Source of the DNA: Eledone cirrhosa
Taxonomy: Eukaryota
Assembly (NCBI GenBank): GCA_964016885.1
Contig: OZ024742.1
Span: forward strand, 279,682,001-279,746,000
Direction: 5' to 3'
DNA length: 64,000 nucleotides
The translations under genes were made by a program, and so were the position numbers. Positions within the stretch are counted from its first letter, which is position 1, and each line of letters begins with the position of its first letter. Below, one piece after another: positions 8,243 through 58,489 of the stretch. Under the pieces are notes generated by a model. That model was given only the letters and a program-made list of their open reading frames with translations, did no database searches and was not told where the DNA came from.

Positions 8243-8326
8243 CCTTTACCGAATCGGTTTCGAGTTTCAAAAATCAATGGACAGTCCTTACGGTATCCAT
8301 TTCAAAGAAACACTCTCGTCAGAAGG
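8243..8326 (-). ncRNA. Type I hammerhead ribozyme (family A), fully canonical copy
   Basis: Reverse complement reads CCTT-CTGACGA-GAGT...ACTC-GAAA-CCG att CGG-TA-AAGG; all three stems pair; GUA cleavage triplet. Confidence 0.85.
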
Positions 8327-11734: not shown

Positions 11735-14700
11735 ATGGATGTGTTAAGAGTAGGATGTTTGAATGCACGTGGCCTGGGCTCAACTTGGAAGCAAGCAAAG
11801 CTTCTAAATGACCTCAGGTCACGTGGTATAAATGTAATGGTTATCTGCGAGATTCGAATCAGCGTCGTGCGGCAGCTGGCCCCTACCTTCGATGACTTTG
11901 AGGTGCATGCATCTCTCTGTCAACCTGGAGGTGGGGTGGGGTTGTCGTACTGCTGGAAAAACACCTGGGTCTCGCCGTACAGGTTGTTCACTCGGACCCG
12001 GAAGGTCGTTTGTTGGTGCTAGACGTTGGCAGTAGTGAAGGTGCGGCCTTGAGACTGGTCGCCGTCTACTCCCCTTTCGGAGTTGAACGACCCGATTTCT
12101 TCCAGCGTCTGGAGACTTTTCTCGGAACGTTGCGTTCCCTGCTTCTAGCGGGGGATTGGAATGACATCCTAGATGCAGGAGGATGTCCTAATAGAGCGGG
12201 GTGTAACAGCCTCAAGAGGTTACTCGACCGTTTTAACTTGGTCGATAGATATTGACTAGATTTTCAAACTGTGCCAACCTGGACTTGGAGAAACCACAGT
12301 GGTCAATCTAGATCGTACTAAGATAGATTCTTAGTTAGAAGTAAGGATAGGGACATATTAAGCTGTCTAGAAATGCTCACGGTTCGCTATACAGATCACA
12401 AATTAGTGACCTGCGTAGTCAATCTCGAGAAAACACATAGACAGGGTCCCGGTTACTGGAAACTTAATTTGTCTTTACCGGCAAAAGAGACTTACAGAAA
12501 CCGGATTAGCAGATTAGTTAAGGAGAGGTTGACGGGTGCAATCGTCAACAACCGATTGTGGGCATCTCTCAAAAGAGAGATTAGAACAGAATCAATAAGT
12601 TATAGCAAGATGTTAGCTGCCGATAGGAATAGGAACGAGAAAGAATTAACAGGTAAATTAGAAGAGGCAATCAAGAGCCAACATGTGGCCAGAGTGCTGG
12701 CATCGAGGACGGCGTTGAGCCAGTTTTTCGATGCAAAGCACGAAGGCTGCGTCATTCGAAGTAAAATACGTGCTCTAGGTAATGAGGGGGCCAAAGCCGT
12801 TGGCTGGGCCCGCGTGACAGAAGCTAAGAGTGGAAATCGATCCACCATCCGGTCTTTGCAAGACGAGGATGGACGGGTGATCCGGGAGCCTAAGCAGATG
12901 TGCGAGGCCTTTCAAAGGCACTTTGCCCGATTGTTCGGGGGAGGCGAGGGTCCGGGCGGCAACGTGGATTTCGGTCCATACCTCGACGGCCTGCCGCGTC
13001 TCTGGAGCAAAGAGTCCTGCGAGAGACCAATCTCGGCTGATGAGATCGGGGATGCGCTGAGCCAATGCAGCAGACGCAAATCTCCAGGTCTCGATGGTAT
13101 ACCTTACGAACTTTATTTAGCAATGCCGGTCTTCTTCTCCGAACTCCTCGAAGCAGTCTACTGCAATTGGCAGCAGAACGGGAGATTTCCTTGTTCTGTA
13201 GCCAAGGGCGTAGTCTCGCTGGTGAGGAAGGACGAGAACAAGGGGGATAGTACACATAATTTTCGGCCCATAACCCTGCTAAACACAGAGTTAAAGATTT
13301 TGGCCAAGGTGTTAGCAAAGAGGTTGGCGCTTGTCGTGGGTGGCCTGGTGGGAGATGCGCAGACATGTGCTATCCCATCCAGGTCCATTCACGACAACCT
13401 CCACCTCATGGGATACATCATAGAGAGGGTTCTCAACAATCCCGGCTTCGGTGGGGCCCTAATCAACTTGGATCAGTCTAAGGCGTTCGATAGGGTCGAC
13501 CATGGTTACCTGGATGCGGTGCTAGCGGCGGCTGGGTTCGGTCCTGTTTTCAGAGGCTGGATCACTGCCTTACATAGCAACCACATCTGTTCTAGGATCA
13601 AGGTGAACGGCTACCTTTCGAAGCCGTTCGAAATCACACGATCCATTCGACAGGGGTGCCCTCTCTCCTCCCTTCTGTACGTATTGACTCTCGACCCTTT
13701 ACTGAGGAAGTTGGAGTTGTTGCAGGGTATCCCCCTGGAACCAGGATTGAGCAAAGCGGTGTCGGCCTACGCCGATGACGTAACAGTAATGGTATCGACC
13801 GACTCGGAGATCGAGGCGATCGGTACCTTACTGGAGGAATACGAAAGGTTGTCAGGAGCGAAACTGAACCGGGAAAAATCCATCGGGCTGCAACTCGGAA
13901 CGTGGAGAGGCAGACCGATGCCTCCCGACGGTGTCGTCGGACACTGGACGGAGGGCCCGGTGAAGTTGCTCCAGGTGGAAAAGAACTGGGGTGAGGTTAC
14001 GAACAAGGTGTTTGCACTAACCCAGAAATGGGCCAAGTGTAAGCTGTCCCTAAAAGGTCGGGCAGAGGTGGCAAACATTTACATAGCGTCCGTCACTTAC
14101 TACCGCCTGACTTTCGTGCCTTGCCCTAAGGAAACACTCACCACCATGGAACGCATGCTCTTTCAATTTCTTTGGAAGAAGCGCCCTCCTATGGTGAGAA
14201 GATCCATCTGCTGCCAATAACCTTCGAAAGTAGGGCTGGGGATGCCCTGGATGATGATGCGTAGGCACGCATTAAGGCTACGGCACCTACAGGTATTCCT
14301 CACTGGTCAACTGGTGTGGGCTCCGTTCGTGAAACGAGCCTTTCCGAGACACGTCTCGCTCACCGAGCTGCAGTCCTGGGTCAAGCAAATATCCGGAAAA
14401 CTGGGAGACTGGCACACTGAGTGTGCCCAGGCGCTCAGGGCTCTCTGGCAAGCGGACGCGGCCATCGGTGGAGAATCCACCTCGTCATTCTATAGAGGGC
14501 TGGTGTCTAGCAGGGGCGATGACACCCTTGGAGAGTCGCTGGGCATGGAAGAGGACGAGTTGGCCAGCCTGATCGGTAGGACTTTCGGCCCAGAACCAAT
14601 GGACAACTTCCAGAAGTCACTAGCCTGGCAGTGCTACCTATCTACCCGTTCGAGAAAAGCTATACAGACACGGGCGCCCGGGCAGGGATCCCTCGAAAAA

Positions 14701-24435: not shown

Positions 24436-25200
24436 ATTTCGTATTTCAGAAGAAATACGGTATGTTTAAAATAAACATTTGGAAAGCCGTAGCTATGCCA
24501 ACACACCAGCGACTAACGCCGTCTGGTTATGTCCTGCAAAAGAAAGGTAGACAATCATGGAGAGGTGAAAACCATATATTCTCACCTGTTTTCAAATTCC
24601 AGCACTTGCAAGTGTGGGAGGGATCGTGCTGATGAGAACCAGTTCATTTCGAAATGCGCATCCTTGATTATCCACCTTGCTACAGCTGGACACCGCCAGA
24701 CGGCATTAGTAACTGGTGCTTTGGCATAGCTACGGCTCCCCAAATGTTTATTTAAAACATAACGCATTTCTTTTGAAATACGAAATTCCAATACATGTTT
24801 GCATACAACCATGCCTGAAGCGAAATTGTATTTCTATTCTATTATAAGTTGAACCAACTTATACAGTTTCATACGCAAATGAGATTAATCACCTCATTTA
24901 CACAGACGAGAAAACCATATATTCACGCCTATTTTCAAAGTTCAGCAGTTGCAAGAGTGTGTGTCGGGGGGGGGGGGGGAGTTGGGTCGTGCTAATGAGA
25001 ACCGGTTCAGATCGAAATTCGCATCCACGATTGTCCCCCTTGCTTCTGCTGGAGACCGCTGGATGGCCTTAGACGCTGGTGATTTTGCATAGCTACGACT
25101 TTGTTTTAAAATGTTTATTCTAAATATATTGTAGTTCGTCTGAAATACGAAATTCCAATACATATCTGTATACAATTATGCCTGAAGCTAAATTGTAATT
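24436..25200 (+). mobile_element. HHR-bearing tandem repeat (~350-360 bp period, ~1.9 copies) preceded by an inverted partial copy
   Basis: Units start aaaaccatatatt at ~24567 and ~24911; 24436-24526 is the reverse complement of ~24696-24787. Confidence 0.8.
24623..24668 (+). ncRNA. Minimal type I hammerhead (second, more mutated copy at 24986-25031)
   Basis: atcgtg-CTGATGA-GAA ccagttcat TTC-GAAA-TGCGCA-TC-cttgat; copy 2 has the fully pairing cacgat but CTAATGA. Confidence 0.75.
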
Positions 25201-36773: not shown

Positions 36774-37864
36774 GTCAGGTCACCACTTGGTGCTATTGGT
36801 AACATGTATCCCAGTACAACCTGTCTCATGGTCGGGTCGTTGGCGACTAAACTGGCAACCCCACCAAGGTTTCTTGGTGAGGAGGGTGACTTTGGACATC
36901 CTGCAGGACTAAAAACAAAACCTGTCAAAGGGCAAAGGAGCTCTTAAGAGTCAATGGCCATCCAAAATCACTGGGAGAGATGACCCCTTAGCCTTTGTCA
37001 AGGCAGAATTCTAGGAGAAGGAAAACTCTGATATAACACCTGCAACCCTGATGGTATCCAATGATGTTGACTTGTTCTTCTTTTTGGTAAATATCATCTT
37101 GGTTAAGAGAGTGGGACTGGCTTTGTGCAGTGCCTTTGCTCACTATAAAAGCTTCATGGCACAGGCATTGCTTTGTATCTGGAGATCTCTCTGCACTTGT
37201 CGTCACATGGTACCAAAGGTAAAGCACTATGTGTCAATAATTGTCACAAGTGTAGTGTTTGTACCAGAGTTTTCAAGTCGCTGGCTGGACTAAAATGTCA
37301 CATTCGTTCAGCGCATCGGTAGGGGTTCTCCTACATGGATATAAAGTAGTGGCCGTACTCGAAAACGAGTTGGCAACCACCATATGTATATATATATATA
37401 TGTATATATATGTATATATATATATATGTATGTATATATGTATATATATATATACATATCAGAGTTTTCCTTCTCCTAGAATTCTGCCTTGACAAAGGCT
37501 AAGGGGTCATCTCTGATATAACACCTGCAACCCTGATGGTAGCCAGTGATGTTGACTTGTTCTTCTTTTTGGTAAATATCATCTTGGTTAAGAGAGTGGA
37601 ACTGGCTTTGTGCAGTTCCTTTGCTCACTATAAAAGCTTCAGGGCCCAGGCATTGCTTTATATCTGGAGATCTCCCTGCACTTGTCATCACATGGTACCA
37701 CGGGCCCAGCACTATTTGTCAATAATTGTCACAAGTGTAGTGTTTGTACCAGAGTTTTCAAGACGCTGGCTGGACTATAAATTCACACTCGTTCAGCGCA
37801 TCGGTAGGAGTCCTCGTACATGGATATAAAGTAGTGGCCGTAATCGAAAACGAGTTGGCAGCCA

Positions 37865-37868
<4 letters not shown>
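36774..37868 (+). mobile_element. RTE-like 5'-region repeat with internal duplication (37030-37383 vs 37513-37868); relative on the minus strand at 41238-41530
   Basis: Direct duplication is visible; ggcgactaaac and ctaggagaaggaaaactctga resemble RTE 5' UTR motifs (recalled, unverified). Confidence 0.5.
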
Positions 37869-37923
<55 letters not shown>

Positions 37924-37934
37924 TGTATATATAC

Positions 37935-37965
<31 letters not shown>

Positions 37966-38064
37966 AATGGAATAGAATGAAACGAAATTTCATTTCTCAC
38001 TCTTAGTACGGCACTTATTTAAATGTATACGTACATACATATATGTATACAGACGTACAGTAGC

Positions 38065-38127
<63 letters not shown>

Positions 38128-38277
38128 CAGGCACACATATATCTATGCACGTATCAGTTTACCGAACATTTATTATAATGTTCGCTTTGTTCGTTTGTAA
38201 ACAAAGGAACAGCCTGATTTACGCCGTACAGTGTTTAGGCAACCACGTCACCTTTTTGTTCAACACTGACACAGAAA

Positions 38278-38318
38278 CGATGTACTAGTTTCAAGCTTGT
38301 TAGCTATCGTCAGCACCG
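38278..38318 (-). ncRNA. Minimal type I hammerhead, copy 1
   Basis: Reverse complement reads CGGTG-CTGACGA-tAGCT aaca AGCTt-GAAA-CTAG-TA-CATCG. Confidence 0.85.
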
Positions 38319-38729
38319 TATACCTTACTGCCAGATGGTTGAACGTCCGAAAGTATATACTTTCCTTATGAAAATTGACGGCTGAGCAGCCCAATTTGCA
38401 TATCGAGGGAGTTCAGTCGGCCAGGCGCACCGAAAACGATAAATGGAATAGAATGAAACGAAATTTCATTTCTCACTCTTAGTACGGCACTTACTTAAAT
38501 GTAAGTATGTATGTATACGTACATACATATATGTATACAGACGTACAGTAGCATGTATATATATATATATATATACATACAGGCACACATATATATATGC
38601 ACGTATCAGTTTACTGAACATTTATTTTAATGTTCTCTTTGTTCGTTTGTAAACAAACGAACAGCCTGATTTACGCCGTACAGTGTTTAGGCAACCACGT
38701 CACGTTTTTGTTCAACACTGACACAGGAA

Positions 38730-38770
38730 CGATGTACTAGTTTCAAGCTTGTTAGCTATCGTCAGCACCG
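38730..38770 (-). ncRNA. Minimal type I hammerhead, copy 2
   Basis: Identical to copy 1. Confidence 0.85.
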
Positions 38771-39003
38771 TATACCTTACTGCCAGATGGTTGAACGTCC
38801 GAAAGTATATACTTTCCTTATGAAAATTAACGGCTGAGCAGCCCAATTTGCATATCGAGTGAGTTCAGTCGGCCAGGCGCACCGAAAACGATAAATGGAA
38901 TAGAATGAAACGAAATTTCATTTCTCACTCTTAAACGGCACTTACTTAAATGTAAGTATGTATATATACGTACATACATATATGTATACAGACGTACAGT
39001 AGC

Positions 39004-39054
<51 letters not shown>

Positions 39055-39216
39055 CAGGCACACATATATATATACATATATATATGCTCGTATCAGTTTA
39101 CCGAACATTTGTTATAATGTTCGCTTTGTTCGTTTGTAAACAAACGAACAGCCTGATTTACGCCGTACAGTGTTTAGGCAACCACATCACCTTTTTGTTC
39201 AACACTGACAGAGGAA

Positions 39217-39257
39217 CGATGTACTAGTTTCAAGCTTGTTAGCTATCGTCAGCACCG
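39217..39257 (-). ncRNA. Minimal type I hammerhead, copy 3
   Basis: Identical to copy 1. Confidence 0.85.
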
Positions 39258-39545
39258 TATACCTTTCTGCCAGATGGTTGAACGTCCGAAAGTATATACT
39301 TTCCTTATGAAAATTAACGGCTGAGCAGTTGCGATTAGAGAGATTATTAACGAGTGACCTAGTGTTATCTATAGAAGAAATTGGATTGGAGAAGTTATTT
39401 CCGATAGGAATAATAGTTTCTTGATTTAGAATGGGATTAAGAACATTTTTCCCAATATCACACATCAATCTAAAACTACTTTTCATATGTTGATTCAAAA
39501 CTGCACTATTCACAAGTATTTTTTAACCTTCATATCATGTCTTCC

Positions 39546-48505: not shown

Positions 48506-51500
48506 CCTTGAATCTCAGTCATTGATGTTGGTTAACTGGAAAGTCCGTTGGATTGAATATCAAGCCACTACCTGCAGCCTCAGATATTCAGGACGTATTG
48601 GAGGGTTCTTGCCGTTCCAAGCAAGCATGCCTTTTGAAGCGTTCCAAAAAGCGTGAAGGGGCCGATTTTCTTTAACCATCCCTGGAAACCTTTGGAGATA
48701 GTCCCCAGTGCGCCTATGACAATCGGGATCACTTTGACTTCATGGCAGTTCCAAATCCTTTTCACCTCCCATTTTAGGTCCTGGTATCGGTTAATTTTCT
48801 CCCTCTCCTTCTCTTGCACTCTCGTGTCGAACGGGCAGGCCACATCCACAATCAGGCACGATCTTTTTTCTTTGTCCACAACCACCAGGTCAGGTCTATT
48901 GTGTTCCAGTTTTTTGTCCGTCTGTATCCTAAAATCCCACAGCACCTTCACCTGACTGTTCTCCATCACCGCCTCTGGCCTATGCTCATACCATTTCTCA
49001 GAATGTGGTAGATTGTTTACTTTGCACAGGTGCCAGTGGATCACCCTGCCCATCACATCGTGTCTCCAGCCCTTATAGTGGGTCTGGGCTAGGTGTTTAC
49101 ACTCGGACACAATGTGAGCCACAGTCTCCTCTCTCTCTCCACAGATCCTGCACAGTGGGCTAGCCTCCTCCTTGTAGATATGGTGCTTCAACCACTTCGT
49201 TTTGAGGGCCTGCTCCTGCGCAGCCATTAGCATTCCTTCTGTAGCCTTTTTGAGGTCTCCTCTTCTCAACCAGTTCCATGTCTGTGGATCTCTAAATTCA
49301 GTTTTCTCAAAGAAGGTACTATGAAGGGATTTTCCCTTAAGGCTGCTCTTCCTCCTTGATGTTATTTCCTCCTTGGGTATCCCCTGGCCTACTGTCCCCT
49401 CCTTCAGTACAGCTCTGAGCATTGGCTCCTTACTATAGGTCACGTATTTGTATAGGTTGTTTTTCTCCATCTGAACACAGTCCTCTATGCTGATAAGACC
49501 TCTTCCACCCTCAGATCTCCTTAGGTAGAGTCTATCGACATCACTCCTCTTGTGGAACATGTTGTAGATAGTCAATAGCTTCCTAGTCTTCCTATCCATT
49601 TCTTTTTGTTCAGCAACATTCCATCTCAGAATTCCCGCACTGTACCTAATAATAGACACAGCTCGGGAATTTACTGCGCTTATGGCATTTCTGCTGTTCA
49701 GATGTGACTTCAATACGCTCCTTACTCTCCGAATGTATTCAGTTCTTAACAATTCCTTCATTTTTTTGTTCTTTATGCCATCAGCCTCCAGAACGCCCAA
49801 ATACTTGTATCCTTCCTCAGAGTCAATTTCCTTTATCATCTCACCTGTTGGTATCTGGATCCCGTTACTTCTGCTCAACCTACCCCTCCTCATCACAATG
49901 ACTCCACATTTACCAATACCAAACTGCATACATATATCACTGCTGAAAATACGGACAGTGTCAACAAGCACATCCAACTCCTTCTCACTTTTCCCGAAGA
50001 GCTTAAGATCGTCCATGAAGAGGAGGTGATTGATGGTAAGCTCTCCCCTTCCCAACTTGTATCCTGCTCTCACTTTTCGCAGCATAATGGTCAAGGGCAT
50101 CAGGGCAAGGACAAACAACAGAGGGGACAGGCTATCTCCCTGGAAGATACCTCTCTTGATCTTCACGCTTCCCAAGGATACTCCAGTTGATGTCAACTCT
50201 GTCTCCCAGGACCCCATACTCCTGCCCAGCAACTGTCTGATGTTATCTGCCACCCTGAAGATCTCCAGGCTTTTGGTGATCCAGGAATGAGGCACCATGT
50301 CAAATGCCTTTCTGTAGTCTATCAATCCCATGGCAAGATCAGTGTGTCTCCTCCTGCAATTCCCCATTACCATCTTATCAATAAGCAACTGGTCCTTTGT
50401 ACCACGTGACTTCTTTCGGCATCCTTTCTGTTCGTCCGGCAACAAGTTGTTTGTGTGGAGGTGATGGTAGATTTCCTCAGACACAATGCTCGTCAACAGT
50501 TTCCACATTACGGGCAGACATGTGATAGGTCTATAGTTGGTAACATCATTACCCTTGATTCGGTCTTTCATTATCAGAACTGTGGTACCTTTTGTCAACC
50601 ACTCTGGCACCTCACCCGACACCAAGCAGTCATTGAACATGGCCGTCAGCTTCGGGTGGAGGGATGTTAAATGTTTAATCCAATACCCCTGCACACCATC
50701 TGGGCCTGGTGATTTCCAGTTGGTTAGTTTTTTGGCTTGCCCCTTAAGAGTTTCAACTGTGATACTCAAATCAGTCTGTTGCTGTGCCTGCTCACCGATC
50801 TCCCTCTGTACTGTCTCAATCCACCCTGCCTGGGCATTGTGTCTAACATCCTGCTCCCATATTCCTCTCCAGAATGTTTTAGCTTGTTCCGCCCCAGGGA
50901 TCAAGTCGGTGCCTCTTTCTTTCCCCTCAAGCTGTCCAAACAGCATCTTCTGGTTGTTGTCGAACATGCGGTTCTGTTTATACTGACTGACTCTGTTCTC
51001 GTATCGCCTGATTTTGGCACTCTTTGCTACAATGCGTTGCTTCAATTCCTCTATGATAATATTTAGCTTTTTACTCCTAGTTTTGTATTTTATTTCCAGT
51101 CTATTTTTAGTGCCTATGTTTTTTAGTGTCCCATTCAGTAGTGACTCAAGCTTTCCTATGTCATTTCTCATTTCCCCGATTTGCCCACTCAGTCGCTTCT
51201 TCCACCACGGCTCTGCTCTTTCTTGTCTGTTGTTTCCTCTCGCTTTTATACCAAGTAGTTTCCTCACCGTATTTGCTGTTGCTTTGAGGATATTGTTGCA
51301 CTGGTGAAGACTCCTCGCCTCAAGGTATGGGATGACTTTGTTTACCTTAGCTGTTGTTTCTTTTAACTTTTTCCTGTCTACAAATCTTAGGTTCATAGGT
51401 CTCCCACTATCATTGTTCAACTCATCTACCACTAAATTTAGGATGTCAACCGAATCTTGTCCTAGCCCGTCAGCATTCATCTCCTCAGTGGCCGTATCTC

Positions 51501-51711
51501 TGTTCCAGGTATTATTTATCTCAGTATTCAGATCATTGTCTGCTTCGGGTGGTTCCTCCGCTCTCAGGACCTCCTCACCTTCATTTCCCGCCGGCTCGCT
51601 TGTCTGGCATACTACACCCGCCATCTCCAAGCCATTCTCTCTGCTCAGTTCCTCCAGGCCAGCTCGCTTATCCACCCATTAGTTCTTATTACCCGAGCCT
51701 GCCCGGCCAAT
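48506..51711 (-). mobile_element. Dong/R4-clade non-LTR retrotransposon, 5'-truncated, inserted in (TAA)n
   Basis: Single RT-RLE ORF, ~75-bp 3' UTR, (TTA)n on both flanks. Confidence 0.92.
48580..51675 (-). CDS. Reverse transcriptase plus CCHC finger plus restriction-like endonuclease (1031 codons; the listed start is not the native start)
   Basis: WKSPGPDG, NYRPITCL, IDYRKAFD, GIFQGDSLSP, FMDD, YKYLG, CRICGEREETVAHIVSEC, RHD, RPD..IVDVACP..EKINRY. Upstream LAGQARVIRTNGWISEL is out of frame by one base near 51660. Confidence 0.93.
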   Translation of the reverse strand: MDKRAGLEELSRENGLEMAGVVCQTSEPAGNEGEEVLRAEEPPEADNDLNTEINNTWNRDTATEEMNADGLGQDSVDILNLVVDELNNDSGRPMNLRFVDRKKLKETTAKVNKVIPYLEARSLHQCNNILKATANTVRKLLGIKARGNNRQERAEPWWKKRLSGQIGEMRNDIGKLESLLNGTLKNIGTKNRLEIKYKTRSKKLNIIIEELKQRIVAKSAKIRRYENRVSQYKQNRMFDNNQKMLFGQLEGKERGTDLIPGAEQAKTFWRGIWEQDVRHNAQAGWIETVQREIGEQAQQQTDLSITVETLKGQAKKLTNWKSPGPDGVQGYWIKHLTSLHPKLTAMFNDCLVSGEVPEWLTKGTTVLIMKDRIKGNDVTNYRPITCLPVMWKLLTSIVSEEIYHHLHTNNLLPDEQKGCRKKSRGTKDQLLIDKMVMGNCRRRHTDLAMGLIDYRKAFDMVPHSWITKSLEIFRVADNIRQLLGRSMGSWETELTSTGVSLGSVKIKRGIFQGDSLSPLLFVLALMPLTIMLRKVRAGYKLGRGELTINHLLFMDDLKLFGKSEKELDVLVDTVRIFSSDICMQFGIGKCGVIVMRRGRLSRSNGIQIPTGEMIKEIDSEEGYKYLGVLEADGIKNKKMKELLRTEYIRRVRSVLKSHLNSRNAISAVNSRAVSIIRYSAGILRWNVAEQKEMDRKTRKLLTIYNMFHKRSDVDRLYLRRSEGGRGLISIEDCVQMEKNNLYKYVTYSKEPMLRAVLKEGTVGQGIPKEEITSRRKSSLKGKSLHSTFFEKTEFRDPQTWNWLRRGDLKKATEGMLMAAQEQALKTKWLKHHIYKEEASPLCRICGEREETVAHIVSECKHLAQTHYKGWRHDVMGRVIHWHLCKVNNLPHSEKWYEHRPEAVMENSQVKVLWDFRIQTDKKLEHNRPDLVVVDKEKRSCLIVDVACPFDTRVQEKEREKINRYQDLKWEVKRIWNCHEVKVIPIVIGALGTISKGFQGWLKKIGPFTLFGTLQKACLLGTARTLQYVLNI

Positions 51712-55644: not shown

Positions 55645-58489
55645 CGGAGGCCATTGTCAACAACAGATGGTAGTACTCTCTCAAGAGGGCAGTTAGATTA
55701 GACTCGATAGGTTTTAGTAAAGAATTAGTGTTACATAGAAATAAGACCGAAAAGGAACTGGTAGATAAAGTATAAGAGGCACTTAAAAATGGCAACGTAG
55801 CCAGCGTGCTAGCGACGAGAACGGCCTTGGACCAGTTCTTCGACGCAAAGCATGAAGGTTGCGTTGTCAGAAGCAAAATACGTGCTCTGGGAAACGAGGG
55901 AGCCAAAGCTGTTAGCTGGGCCCGAGGGACGGAGGCGAAAAGTGGCAACAACTTAACGATTCGGTCTTTGAAGGACCAAGACGGATGCGTGATACGTGAG
56001 CCGAAGCAAATGTGCGCGGCCTTTCAGCGGCACTTTGCTCAACTGTCCGGGCAGGGCGGCGCGCCGGGAGGGGCTATGGATTTAGGTTCATACCTCGACG
56101 GCCTACCGCGACTCTCGGACATCGAGGCGAACTTCTGCGAAAGGCTGATTTCGGCCGCTGAGATAGGGTACGCGCTGAGCCAATGCGGCAAGGCAAATCT
56201 CCAGGTCTCGACGGTCTACCCTACGAATTTTACGTAGCAATGCCGGACTTGTTCTCCGGTCTCCTGGAAGCGGTCTACTGCAACTGGCAGCAGCACGGGA
56301 GAATTCCCAGTTCTGTGACCAAGGGCGTAATCACGTTAATCAGAAAGGACGAGTACAAGAGGGATGACATAGGCAACTTCCGGCCCATAACTCTGCTCAA
56401 CACAGAGTTACAGATTTTGGCCAAGGTGTTGGCAAAAAGGCTGGCGCTTGTCATGGAAAACCTGGTGGGAGAAGCGCAGACATGCACAATCCCGACCAAG
56501 TCTATACAATACAACCTCCACCTCATGCGATACATCATAGAGAGGGTAGTGTGTAAATCCGGCTTCGGTTGGGCCCTGATCAACTTGGATCAGTCTAAGG
56601 CTTTCGATAGGGGTGACCATCGTTACCTGGATGCGGTGCTCGAGGCGGCAGGCTTCGGTCCCGTGTTCAGGGGCTGGATTGCTGCAATGCACAACAGCAA
56701 TAACTGCTCAAGGGTCAAGGTGAACGGCTACCTCTCGGAGTCGTTCCACATCACACGATCCATCCGACAGGGAAGCCCTCTCTCCTCCCTTCTGTACGTA
56801 CTGACGCTCGAGCCAGTACTGCGGAAATTGGAGCGATTGCAGGCATCCCTTTGGAACCGTACTATGAAAAGCGACGTCGCACTACGCCGACGACGTGACA
56901 GTAATAATGTTGAGCACCTCGAAAATTGGGTAGATCGGCACCTTACTGGAGGAATACGAAAGGTTCACAGGAGCGAAGCTGAACGGGGACAAATCCGTCG
57001 GCTTGCAACTCGGAACGTGGAGAGGCAAACCGATGCCTTCCGATGACGTCGTCTGACGCTGGACGGAAGGCCCGTAAAGCTACTCGGGGTCTGGTTTGGT
57101 CCCGACCTCCAGGTGGAGAATAACTGGAACGAGATGACGGCCAAGGTGTTTGCGCTCACCCAGAAGTGGGCCGAGTGCAAACTATCCTTGAAAGGTCGAG
57201 CGGAGGTGGCCAACACTTTTATAGCGTCCGTCATCTACTACCGTTTGGCCGTTGTGCCTTGTCCAGCAAAAACGCTCACCAAAATGGAGCGCGCGCTCTT
57301 CCAATTCCTTTGGAAGAAACGGGCTCCTTTAGTGAGAAAATCCATCTGCTGCCAACACCCTTCAAACGGAGGGCTGGGGACGCCGTGACTGAGGATGCGC
57401 AAATACGCGCTCAGGCTGAGGCACCTCCAGGTATTCCTCACCAGACAACCGGTGTGGGCCCCGTTCGTGAGGTACCTCCCACGACTCGTCTCACTGACCG
57501 AGCTTCAGACCTGGGTCAAGCAAAGACCGAGGAAAATGGTCGACTGGCATATCGAATGTGCTCAGGCGCTCACAGTCCTCTGGCAAACGGAACCGGCGAT
57601 CTGTGGAGACTCCACTTCAACATTCTATAGAGGGTTGGTCCGCAGAAAGTGCGACGACACGCTTGGAGAAACTCTAGGCGTAGAGGAGGACGAACTGGCC
57701 AGTCTGTTCGGTGGGACCTTCCGCCCGGCACCAATGGACAACTTCCGAAAGTCCCTGACCTACTGAGGAGCTCTACCAGTTCGAGACAAGCTCTACAGAC
57801 ACGGGCGTCCGAGTAGGGACCCTTAGAAAAAGATCTGTCCGAGATGCGTGCGCGACGAGGAAGCCGTGGCACACGCATTTTTATACTGCCCGGGCGTTAC
57901 CGACCTGTGGGGCTATGTAGAACGACTATTGTCGCGGGTGGGACCAATCCAGTTGACCACCGAGTTCATTGTCATGATCAAACCGACACCCTCCTTCAAA
58001 AACGAGGGAGAGTCGGTTTTCCTATGTGTTAAGGCTATGGTGAAAGAGCTTATATGGTGGACGAGGTTAAAAGGGCTGAGGTCAGACACCTTTCTCTCCG
58101 GCGAGCAAGTGATTCGTTTTTTCAAATATAATTTTGGAAGAAGAATCAGGATGGAGAGAGAGGTGCTGTACCCCAGCAAATTTTATAAAAGGTGGGTGAA
58201 TGTGGCAAAGATGGCCCGGCTGGTTGGGTCTTCTCTCTATATAAGCCTTTTGGTTGAGGAAAAAGAGGAAGAGAGGCAGGGAGTACTCACTAGTGGTGCT
58301 CTTGGAGATGAGGGTTGTACATTTTTCGGGGTGTGTACAACCCCTGCGTAACACTTCACCCCTATTGCGGATGGGATATCAATTCTTATTTCTTATTGTA
58401 TTAATAGTTTTATTTTCATATACCTGTATGTAAATTCTCCATTTGTATTTGTCCCCTTCTTTTGTGCCCTTGTGACTAATAAAGAAATT
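55645..58489 (+). mobile_element. 5'-truncated Tx1-family copy with disrupted RT
   Basis: SPGLDG, FRPITLLN, DQSKAFDR, RQGSPLS; 14-bp TSD TATCCATCTAGCTA at 55631-55644 and 58490-58503. Confidence 0.92.

What the first reader, a model, noticed from the sequence alone, without database searches (positions are those of the whole stretch)
37964..39328. Young three-unit retrozyme-like array with a minimal hammerhead in every unit
Seen: three near-identical non-coding units, each carrying the same 41-nt minus-strand motif CGGTG-CTGACGA-tAGCTaacaAGCTt-GAAA-CTAG-TA-CATCG, spaced 452 and 487 nt apart. Known: minimal type I hammerheads with a tiny palindromic stem III occur in PLE pseudo-LTRs and metazoan non-LTR retrozymes, where they cleave as dimers and release monomers that can circularise. 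Inferred: a read-through transcript would self-process into 452- and 487-nt RNAs, copied by a PLE reverse transcriptase in trans. Unusually, each monomer contains a variable (TA)n tract.
Basis: partly seen in the sequence, partly recalled or inferred. Interest (0 to 1): 0.85.

Follow-up and report, generated by a model that had tools for sequence, protein, structure and literature searches.

The report
Microsatellite-seeking hammerhead retrozyme family
These three repeats are one insertion of a protein-free jumping element with a predicted self-cutting RNA motif, present tens of thousands of times in this animal genome; its copies end in the pattern that Penelope-type transposon enzymes leave, and it is likely copied from a small RNA circle, which makes it a new member of a known class (retrozymes) whose copying step can now be tested.

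Summary
Observation confirmed: three identical 41-nt minus-strand type I hammerhead motifs, 487 and 452 nt apart, in 2.9 tandem units (37963-39328). This is one insertion of a large dispersed family (24,619 matches of the 33-nt core; control 0). Stems covary across related families, so the fold is under selection, though stem II opens with U·U. In 185 sampled insertions, 242 of 296 3' ends fall at two sites 57 nt apart, mostly joined to (TA)n. Two-armed insertions use one site per arm (69 of 72). That is the Penelope-like (PLE) 'tail' footprint, also seen in an intact (TA)n-targeting PLE of this genome. No parent PLE was found. One A>G-rich copy, unique in the genome, repeats its changes in successive units and in both arms, which favours a circular RNA; other arrays look like copies of mixed multimers. 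Cleavage and expression are untested. Verdict: new member of animal non-LTR retrozymes. The scan already reported 310-, 422- and 467-nt relatives elsewhere in this genome.

The parts
37963..39328 (-). Whole insertion: one-armed, 2.9 tandem units, 5'-truncated at unit position 50, 3' end at the 'long' fixed site joined to (TA)n
38891..39328 (-). Unit 3 (5'-most, partial)
38439..38890 (-). Unit 2 (452 nt), used as reference; unit position p = 38891 - window coordinate
37963..38438 (-). Unit 1 (476 nt, 3'-most)
39217..39257 (-). Type I hammerhead motif 1; predicted cleavage after 39222
38730..38770 (-). Type I hammerhead motif 2; predicted cleavage after 38735; U·U at base of 4-bp stem II; 6-nt palindromic stem III
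38278..38318 (-). Type I hammerhead motif 3; predicted cleavage after 38283
38710..38796 (-). Predicted extended stem I around the hammerhead (shown for unit 2); part of it covaries with the sister family
37963..38019 (-). 57-nt 'tail' between the short (unit ~395) and long (unit ~452) fixed 3' ends; present at this insertion's 3' end
38439..38495 (-). Same tail segment inside unit 2; holds a short hairpin that the sister family keeps
38068..38123 (.). Internal (TA)28 tract of unit 1, centre of a long predicted hairpin
38556..38575 (.). Internal (TA)10 tract of unit 2
39007..39050 (.). Internal (TA)22 tract of unit 3
38846..38853 (-). Octamer-like motif about 75 nt upstream of the hammerhead (also 38394-38401), kept in the sister family; promoter role not supported by the tests made
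37867..37965 (.). Target (TA)n microsatellite, the tail of an older unrelated repeat

Best explanation
The array is one insertion of a dispersed, protein-free tandem repeat with a hammerhead motif in every unit (a non-LTR retrozyme), whose predicted self-cut and likely circularised RNA is probably reverse-transcribed into nicked (TA)n microsatellites by a Penelope-like (PLE) enzyme supplied in trans. Steps: (1) SHOWN: thousands of dispersed copies, tandem and head-to-head, no ORF. (2) INFERRED: read-through transcription of the hammerhead strand; the strand is supported by end polarity and by strand-biased shared A>G changes. (3) INFERRED: slow cleavage at GUA by paired ribozymes that complete stem III through the palindrome, then ligation by a host ligase into 420-540-nt circles; some uncut multimers also serve as templates. 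(4) SHOWN as a genomic pattern, enzyme INFERRED: reverse transcription starts at two fixed internal sites 57 nt apart, one per DNA end, giving two back-to-back 5'-truncated arms or, as in this window, a single arm. (5) PARTLY SHOWN: later, TA tracts change length, other elements insert into the internal tract, and some arrays are reshaped by local duplication. My odds: PLE-mobilised non-autonomous element about 90%; ribozyme cleaves in vivo about 70%; circles are a main template about 60%.
For: Copy number: 24,619 matches of the 33-nt core, control 0; 3,650 of a 23-mer in the tail. Ends: 185 distinct complete insertions from 210 loci: 113 two-armed, 70 one-armed, 2 complex; 242 of 296 3' ends at two sites, 190 of these 242 followed by TA-rich DNA vs 1 of 19 other ends. 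One short plus one long end in 69 of the 72 two-armed insertions with both ends at fixed sites (binomial p 1e-17; 40 of 43 without the tail-anchored sample). An intact young PLE family (frames to about 1,240 aa; 138 scored matches at 96-100%; GIY-YIG/HTH_animal/RT look-alikes) also ends in (TA)n at two sites 60 nt apart, one of each in 7 of 7 loci showing opposed ends. Frangieh 2024 (PMC11167929, parts 1-2 of 4 read) shows in vitro that a PLE protein starts RT at two internal sites bounding the tail and extends both strands. Fold: on 15 hand-picked variants from three related families, 92% of cells pair, 9 of 13 pairs change on both sides, slid controls 28-49%; core minor-allele frequency 0.6% vs 4.1% elsewhere in a sample chosen without the hammerhead (98 segments). 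Same template for both arms: mismatch at non-CpG diagnostic sites 6.8% within insertions (9.1% between opposite arms) vs 41.8% between insertions. RNA step: rare variants shared by all covering copies of an insertion are A>G in 11 of 23 cases vs 65 of 719 single-copy variants (p 3e-6; single-copy A>G:T>C 65:78). L051 has 16 A>G vs 1 T>C; its edited 26-mer occurs 3 times in the genome, all in that insertion: two successive units and the opposite arm.
Against: No cleavage or RNA data. Stem II opens with U·U; the axolotl motif with this mismatch cleaves weakly as a monomer (22% in 1 h; PMC7229834 part 3), 8 of 9 Xenopus dimers did not cleave (10.64898/2026.07.22.740005 part 3), and a PLE hammerhead was dispensable for insertion in vitro (PMC11167929). 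A misfold that buries the core is predicted 2.1 kcal/mol more stable than the active-like monomer fold. Among 22 arrays with three or more overlapping units, rare variants were shared by all units in only 2 and by a subset in 13; single shared sites can be chance, but L032, L034, L036 and L109 have several, and L034 shares a set between one unit of each arm, which fits a mixed multimer template. In this window one rare variant is in units 1 and 2 but not unit 3, so this trimer is not itself proof of a single circle. Five of the 11 shared A>G sites come from L051 alone, and its A>G changes show no significant neighbour preference (2 of 16 vs 14 of 84 with 5' G). Site-level depletion of subfamily variants in the core is not significant (Fisher p 0.16). 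The partner enzyme is not identified: no DNA similarity to the PLE tested, tails differ in length (57, 69, 60 nt), and several other PLE families exist.
Confidence: 0.62

Rival explanations
1. Same non-autonomous PLE-mobilised element, but the templates are uncut multimeric read-through RNAs from existing arrays; the hammerhead is weak, protein-assisted or acts at another step, and circles are minor.
For: Copies cross the cleavage site freely (245 of 339); subset-shared variants in 13 of 22 arrays and across arms in L034; block-wise shared variants in a 30-unit sister array; U·U in stem II and predicted misfold; hammerhead dispensable in vitro for an Anolis PLE (PMC11167929).
Against: The genome-unique A>G pattern of L051 recurs one unit apart in the same arm (2 of 2 A>G sites in the overlap); 13 of 13 complete units identical across both arms in sister array L300, although that variant occurs at 7 loci; strong covariation of the hammerhead stems.
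Confidence: 0.27
2. The unit is the pseudo-LTR (3' end) of an autonomous PLE that I did not sample; arrays are by-products of its truncated tandem insertions.
For: All the insertion hallmarks are those of PLEs; 24 of 57 Xenopus retrozyme families match PLE termini (10.64898/2026.07.22.740005 part 3). Only about 205 insertions were inspected out of many thousands.
Against: In the rows displayed (the output was cut), the tail always continued into the next unit or into (TA)n, never into an ORF. PLE ORFs near units were separate insertions, mostly antisense or behind (TA)n. The PLE families seen carry different hammerheads. The homologous 469-nt sister family has the same ORF-less unit.
Confidence: 0.06
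3. A minisatellite or DNA-transposon-like repeat amplified at the DNA level, with a hammerhead that is a passenger.
For: Some arrays show signs of local duplication.
Against: Dispersed copies with fixed 3' ends, variable 5' truncation, inversions and one-sided tails; strand-biased shared A>G; compensatory stem changes.
Confidence: 0.03

Closest known systems
Metazoan non-LTR retrozymes (Cervera and de la Pena 2020, PMC7229834, parts 2-4 of 6 read; Li, Clavereau and Pollet 2026, 10.64898/2026.07.22.740005, parts 1-3 of 5 read)
   Same: Tandem non-coding units of a few hundred bases, one type I hammerhead per unit, short palindromic helix III, GC under 50%, co-occurrence with PLEs; U·U at the base of helix II as in axolotl HHR_Amex2.
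   Different: Here the PLE footprint (two fixed 3' ends, one per arm; head-to-head arms; (TA)n targets) is read directly from the copies, which those papers propose but do not map in the parts read; no homologous PLE terminus found, unlike many Xenopus families; variable internal (TA)n tract; cleavage and circular RNA not shown here.
EN+ Penelope-like elements and their pseudo-LTR minimal hammerheads (Cervera and de la Pena 2014, PMC4209133, parts 1-2 of 4 read; Craig et al. 2021, 10.1101/2021.04.23.441226, passages; Frangieh et al. 2024, PMC11167929, parts 1-2 of 4; PMC3846280, passages)
   Same: 5' truncation, partial tandems, inverted 5' copy, tail on one end only, (TA)n bias (Neptune/Naiad), hammerhead upstream of the RT start sites.
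   Different: No ORF; tail 57 nt instead of 30-40; hammerhead lacks the extra base after A9, the G10.1-C11.1 pair and the 7-8-bp helix II typical of PLE minimal hammerheads.
Newt satellite 2 (snRNA-type internal promoter; known to me from a passage in PMC2220036 and from recall; the 1994 paper was not held)
   Same: Tandem hammerhead repeat; an octamer-like motif lies in the unit.
   Different: No octamer or similarity to the unit in 300 nt upstream of the host U2 genes checked, and a sister sub-lineage with a mutated octamer still spread to 7 loci.

Membership tests
Non-LTR retrozyme | Tandem units of a few hundred bases, type I hammerhead in consecutive units | tested here: met
   3 of 3 units in the window; 420-540-nt subfamilies
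Non-LTR retrozyme | No protein-coding capacity | tested here: met
   Longest ATG frames 51 and 39 aa, through the TA tract
Non-LTR retrozyme | Dispersed mobile copies | tested here: met
   24,619 core matches; 185 distinct insertions inspected
Non-LTR retrozyme | Conserved catalytic core and stems | tested here: met
   Core invariant and 9 of 13 pairs with two-sided change in 15 variants; base pair 10.1-11.1 is U·U in this family
Non-LTR retrozyme | Self-cleavage of the transcript | not testable with these tools
   Needs an in vitro assay
Non-LTR retrozyme | Expressed as monomeric linear and circular RNA | not testable with these tools
   No RNA run was offered; only indirect genomic support
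Non-LTR retrozyme | Coexists with autonomous PLEs | tested here: met
Non-LTR retrozyme | Target-site duplication longer than 4 bp when present | tested here: inconclusive
   Targets are microsatellites; none seen in the window
Non-LTR retrozyme | No LTR, primer-binding site or polypurine tract | not tested
   No LTR arrangement seen in the copy maps; PBS and PPT not searched
PLE-mobilised element | 5' truncation with inverted 5' copy | tested here: met
   113 of 185 insertions two-armed; 236 5' breakpoints spread over the unit
PLE-mobilised element | Tail on one end only (two RT start sites) | tested here: met
   69 of 72
Autonomous PLE or its pseudo-LTR | Attached in sense to an RT plus GIY-YIG ORF | tested here: not met
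   None in 185 insertions plus 20 further loci; neighbouring PLEs are separate insertions
Autonomous PLE or its pseudo-LTR | Sequence homology to a PLE terminus | tested here: inconclusive
   None to the main PLE family by blastn; other families compared by eye only; not all PLE families sampled
PLE minimal hammerhead (Cervera 2014) | Extra base after A9, G10.1-C11.1, helix II of 7-8 bp | tested here: not met
   U·U and 4 bp, no extra base
PLE minimal hammerhead (Cervera 2014) | Palindromic helix III region | tested here: met
   6-nt palindrome, duplex -4.8 kcal/mol; a different palindrome in the 310-nt family
Rfam hammerhead families | Score above gathering threshold | tested here: not met
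   HH9 17.6 bits vs 52

The most novel reading that the evidence does not exclude
A clade of retrozymes that has no PLE parent sequence and has evolved on its own, parasitising (TA)n-targeting PLE enzymes through structure alone: two enzyme molecules copy one edited RNA circle from two fixed start sites into both ends of a DNA break, and genome-unique A>G patterns repeated around the unit are the fossil record of rolling-circle reverse transcription. The unit's own (TA)n hairpin would double as an editing substrate and as a landing pad for its helper.
Probability: 0.4. Interest if true: 0.72.

Novelty: new member of a known kind. Interest (0 to 1): 0.5.

Why it matters
Retrozyme mobilisation by PLE enzymes from circular RNA has been proposed since 2014-2020 but, in the papers read, rests on co-occurrence and homology. 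This family gives mapped RT start sites, a candidate intact helper with the same target and footprint, and natural variants with G-C, C-G, C·A or U·U at the base of stem II, so both the trans-mobilisation step and the need for cleavage can be tested with the published in vitro PLE assay. At more than 24,000 hammerhead copies (plus more than 11,000 in related families) it is also a sizeable part of this genome's repeat content. The class itself is known, and the scan has met the same footprint in other families of this genome.

Tried and rejected
Chance motif: rejected. Cleaved linear monomer as template: rejected (4 of 339 segments start within 5 nt of the site; 5 of 236 breakpoints in positions 152-163). 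snRNA-type promoter: no octamer and no alignment above shuffles upstream of U2 genes (octamer scan on 3, alignment on 2 of the 12 U2 loci fetched); an octamer-mutant sister lineage still spread (69 matches at 7 loci); U1 and U6 not checked. L300 as proof of a single edited circle: rejected, the variant is at 7 loci. Internal (TA)n as a third priming site: unresolved; of 35 ends first classed there, by eye 13 were misclassified, 8 are nested insertions and 14 end in the tract. Tail length as a ruler shared with the PLE: not exact (57, 69, 60 nt). Hairpin shared with the PLE tail: not evident in single-sequence folds; only a 10-nt word is shared. L066 (PLE fragment joined without TA into an array) and L016 as template-switch chimeras: more simply two events. 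ADAR neighbour preference in L051: not significant. Sequencing runs: no RNA holder listed; contigs of two runs of unrecorded kind were laid, one from a second organism holding the stretch with 15 differences in 391 nt. Pfam found no family in the full PLE protein and PDB only a GIY-YIG endonuclease at E 0.25; its identity rests on motifs read by eye (names recalled) and Atlas look-alikes. Circular fold z of -7 to -9 is discounted because the (AU)n tract drives it. Rfam microRNA hits are TA-repeat artefacts. Literature: searches (hammerhead, retrozyme, octopus; cephalopod, hammerhead ribozyme; retrozyme, editing) listed nothing that describes this family by title or abstract; listings were not read further. 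bioRxiv supplements (family tables of the 2026 preprint) could not be seen and PMC supplements were not opened; they may list related invertebrate families.

Full report
Observation. The array runs from 39328 (5' truncation at unit position 50) to 37963, where it joins a (TA)n tract that ends an older repeat. It has one arm, 2.9 units, no ORF, and units 2.6-3.7% apart. The motif has the full type I core, a 5-6-bp stem I that extends into a long irregular helix, a 4-bp stem II opened by U·U, and a 6-nt palindromic stem III. Rfam scores it far below threshold.

It is a large dispersed family. The 39-nt motif has 675 exact matches, a 31-mer typical of the window's subfamily 97, a 23-mer in the tail 3,650 and the 33-nt core with two free positions 24,619; all reversed controls were 0. 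Twenty loci picked from that last list show subfamilies of 420-540 nt, 88-93% identical, each with a TA tract. A homologous 469-nt sister family aligns over the whole unit (score 178 vs shuffle maximum 68), is 98-99% identical among copies and forms arrays of 15 units or more; cores with the same palindrome and a base other than U at 10.1 number 11,313 (control 4). A 310-nt family has the same architecture with another palindrome.

The fold is under selection. On 15 hand-picked variants from these three families, 92% of cells pair, 9 of 13 pairs have two-sided changes, and slid controls fall to 28-49% (the rows are related and were chosen for variety, so this is not a probability). The extended stem I also covaries (12 of 25 predicted pairs). 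In 98 segments sampled by the tail anchor, core positions have 0.6% minor alleles vs 4.1% elsewhere; the only subfamily variant in the motif there converts a G·U pair of stem I to A-U; the site-level test is not significant (p 0.16). The 10.1-11.1 pair is unpaired in 9 of the 15 rows, so this family probably has a weak ribozyme, like axolotl HHR_Amex2, which works better as a dimer (PMC7229834). A monomer misfold is predicted 2.1 kcal/mol more stable than the active-like fold, and the palindrome duplex gives -4.8.

The ends show how it moves. From 210 loci (best hits and three exact-pattern samples, the larger lists taken from the start of contig 1) I kept 185 distinct insertions that lay wholly inside a locus: 113 head-to-head two-armed, 70 one-armed, 2 complex. 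On the hammerhead strand 242 of 296 3' ends fall near unit position 395 or 452, and 190 of those run into TA-rich DNA; 5' ends are scattered. Of the 72 two-armed insertions with both ends at fixed sites, 69 have one of each (40 of 43 without the tail-anchored sample); the other 41 two-armed insertions have at least one end in the TA tract or elsewhere. The sister family ends at the orthologous sites, 69 nt apart. This is the PLE tail on one end only (Craig 2021), which Frangieh 2024 traced to two internal RT start sites and extension of both DNA strands. A young intact PLE family here (frames to about 1,240 aa with RT and C-terminal GIY-YIG motifs) ends in (TA)n at two sites 60 nt apart, one of each in 7 of 7 loci showing opposed ends. 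It is a candidate helper, not a proven one: it shares no DNA similarity with the unit, and related PLE families exist. No unit was found in sense continuity with a PLE ORF.

What is the template? Not the cleaved linear monomer: 245 of 339 segments cross the cleavage site and 4 start within 5 nt of it. Both arms usually come from one lineage (9% vs 42% mismatch at diagnostic sites). L051 carries 16 A>G vs 1 T>C, and its edited 26-mer occurs only three times in the genome, in two successive units of one arm and in the other arm. The simplest reading is one edited monomer read more than once round, from both sides; editing by ADAR is inferred, and the neighbour test was inconclusive. Against a single route: 13 of 22 longer arrays share rare variants among only some units, L034 shares a set between one unit of each arm, and a 30-unit sister array shows repeated blocks, which point to mixed multimer templates or later duplication. 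In the window, units 1 and 2 share one rare variant that unit 3 lacks; chance or local duplication can explain it.

The TA tract. It varies widely (spacer 11-337 nt, median 35, n 207), centres a long predicted hairpin and has received other elements in 8 of 185 insertions, three of them PLEs. The sister family has only a degenerate TA-rich stretch there and moves by the same route, so the pure tract is not required. Whether it also primes is open.

Comparison and verdict. It works like, and meets the genomic criteria of, an animal non-LTR retrozyme; cleavage and circular RNA could not be tested. It is not an autonomous PLE or a recognisable pseudo-LTR, and its ribozyme is not the typical PLE minimal form. 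The host was not identified; earlier notes call similar genomes cephalopod, which I did not test. The searches named under Tried and rejected listed no paper on this family. The scan has already reported the same footprint for 310-, 422- and 467-nt families in this genome; a look-up by sequence returned nothing, and my end analysis came before those look-ups. New member of a known kind; interest 0.5, because it makes the proposed PLE and circle route testable but is not a new system.

Noticed in passing
window 36780-37866: Repeat that looks like a non-autonomous LINE derivative (RTE-like, from recall) with a short internal inversion and two copies 485 nt apart at 93%, each ending in (TA)n; the same 5' end sits inside a unit's TA tract in L223.
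   Followed up: no
window 48580-51678 (-), 12322-14220 (+), 56162-57046 (+): Reverse transcriptase frames (RVT_1; 1,032, 632 and 294 aa); none matched the PLE protein by tblastn.
   Followed up: partly
L151-L158 (e.g. G000:C2:132075514 region): Young, abundant, intact (TA)n-targeting PLE with an asparagine/histidine-rich N-terminal insert, its own pseudo-LTR hammerhead, and a 60-nt tail encoding the ORF start.
   Followed up: partly
L012:661-1130; L292-L293; L298; L300: 469-nt sister retrozyme family, very young, arrays up to 31 units, G-C at the base of stem II; one sub-lineage has three A>G changes in the octamer-like motif and occurs at 7 loci.
   Followed up: partly
L202:2340-3001; L080; L118: 310-nt tandem hammerhead family with U·U or A-U at the base of stem II and a different stem III palindrome.
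   Followed up: partly
L066:1428-3030: PLE 3' fragment joined without (TA)n into a unit array in antisense, replacing about 70 nt, with a short microhomology at its 3' junction.
   Followed up: partly
G000:C3:307349256-307453739: Tandem cluster of more than 40 U2 snRNA genes with a period of about 2.2 kb.
   Followed up: no
L244:1929 (-), L171:2226 (+), L039:371 (-), window 24629-24662 (+), 8294-8322 (-): Further hammerhead-like motifs of other families; the two in the window were not checked for stems.
   Followed up: no
run X4, record 9: A second organism holds the unit in one contig with 15 differences over 391 nt, so the family is probably shared with a related species.
   Followed up: no
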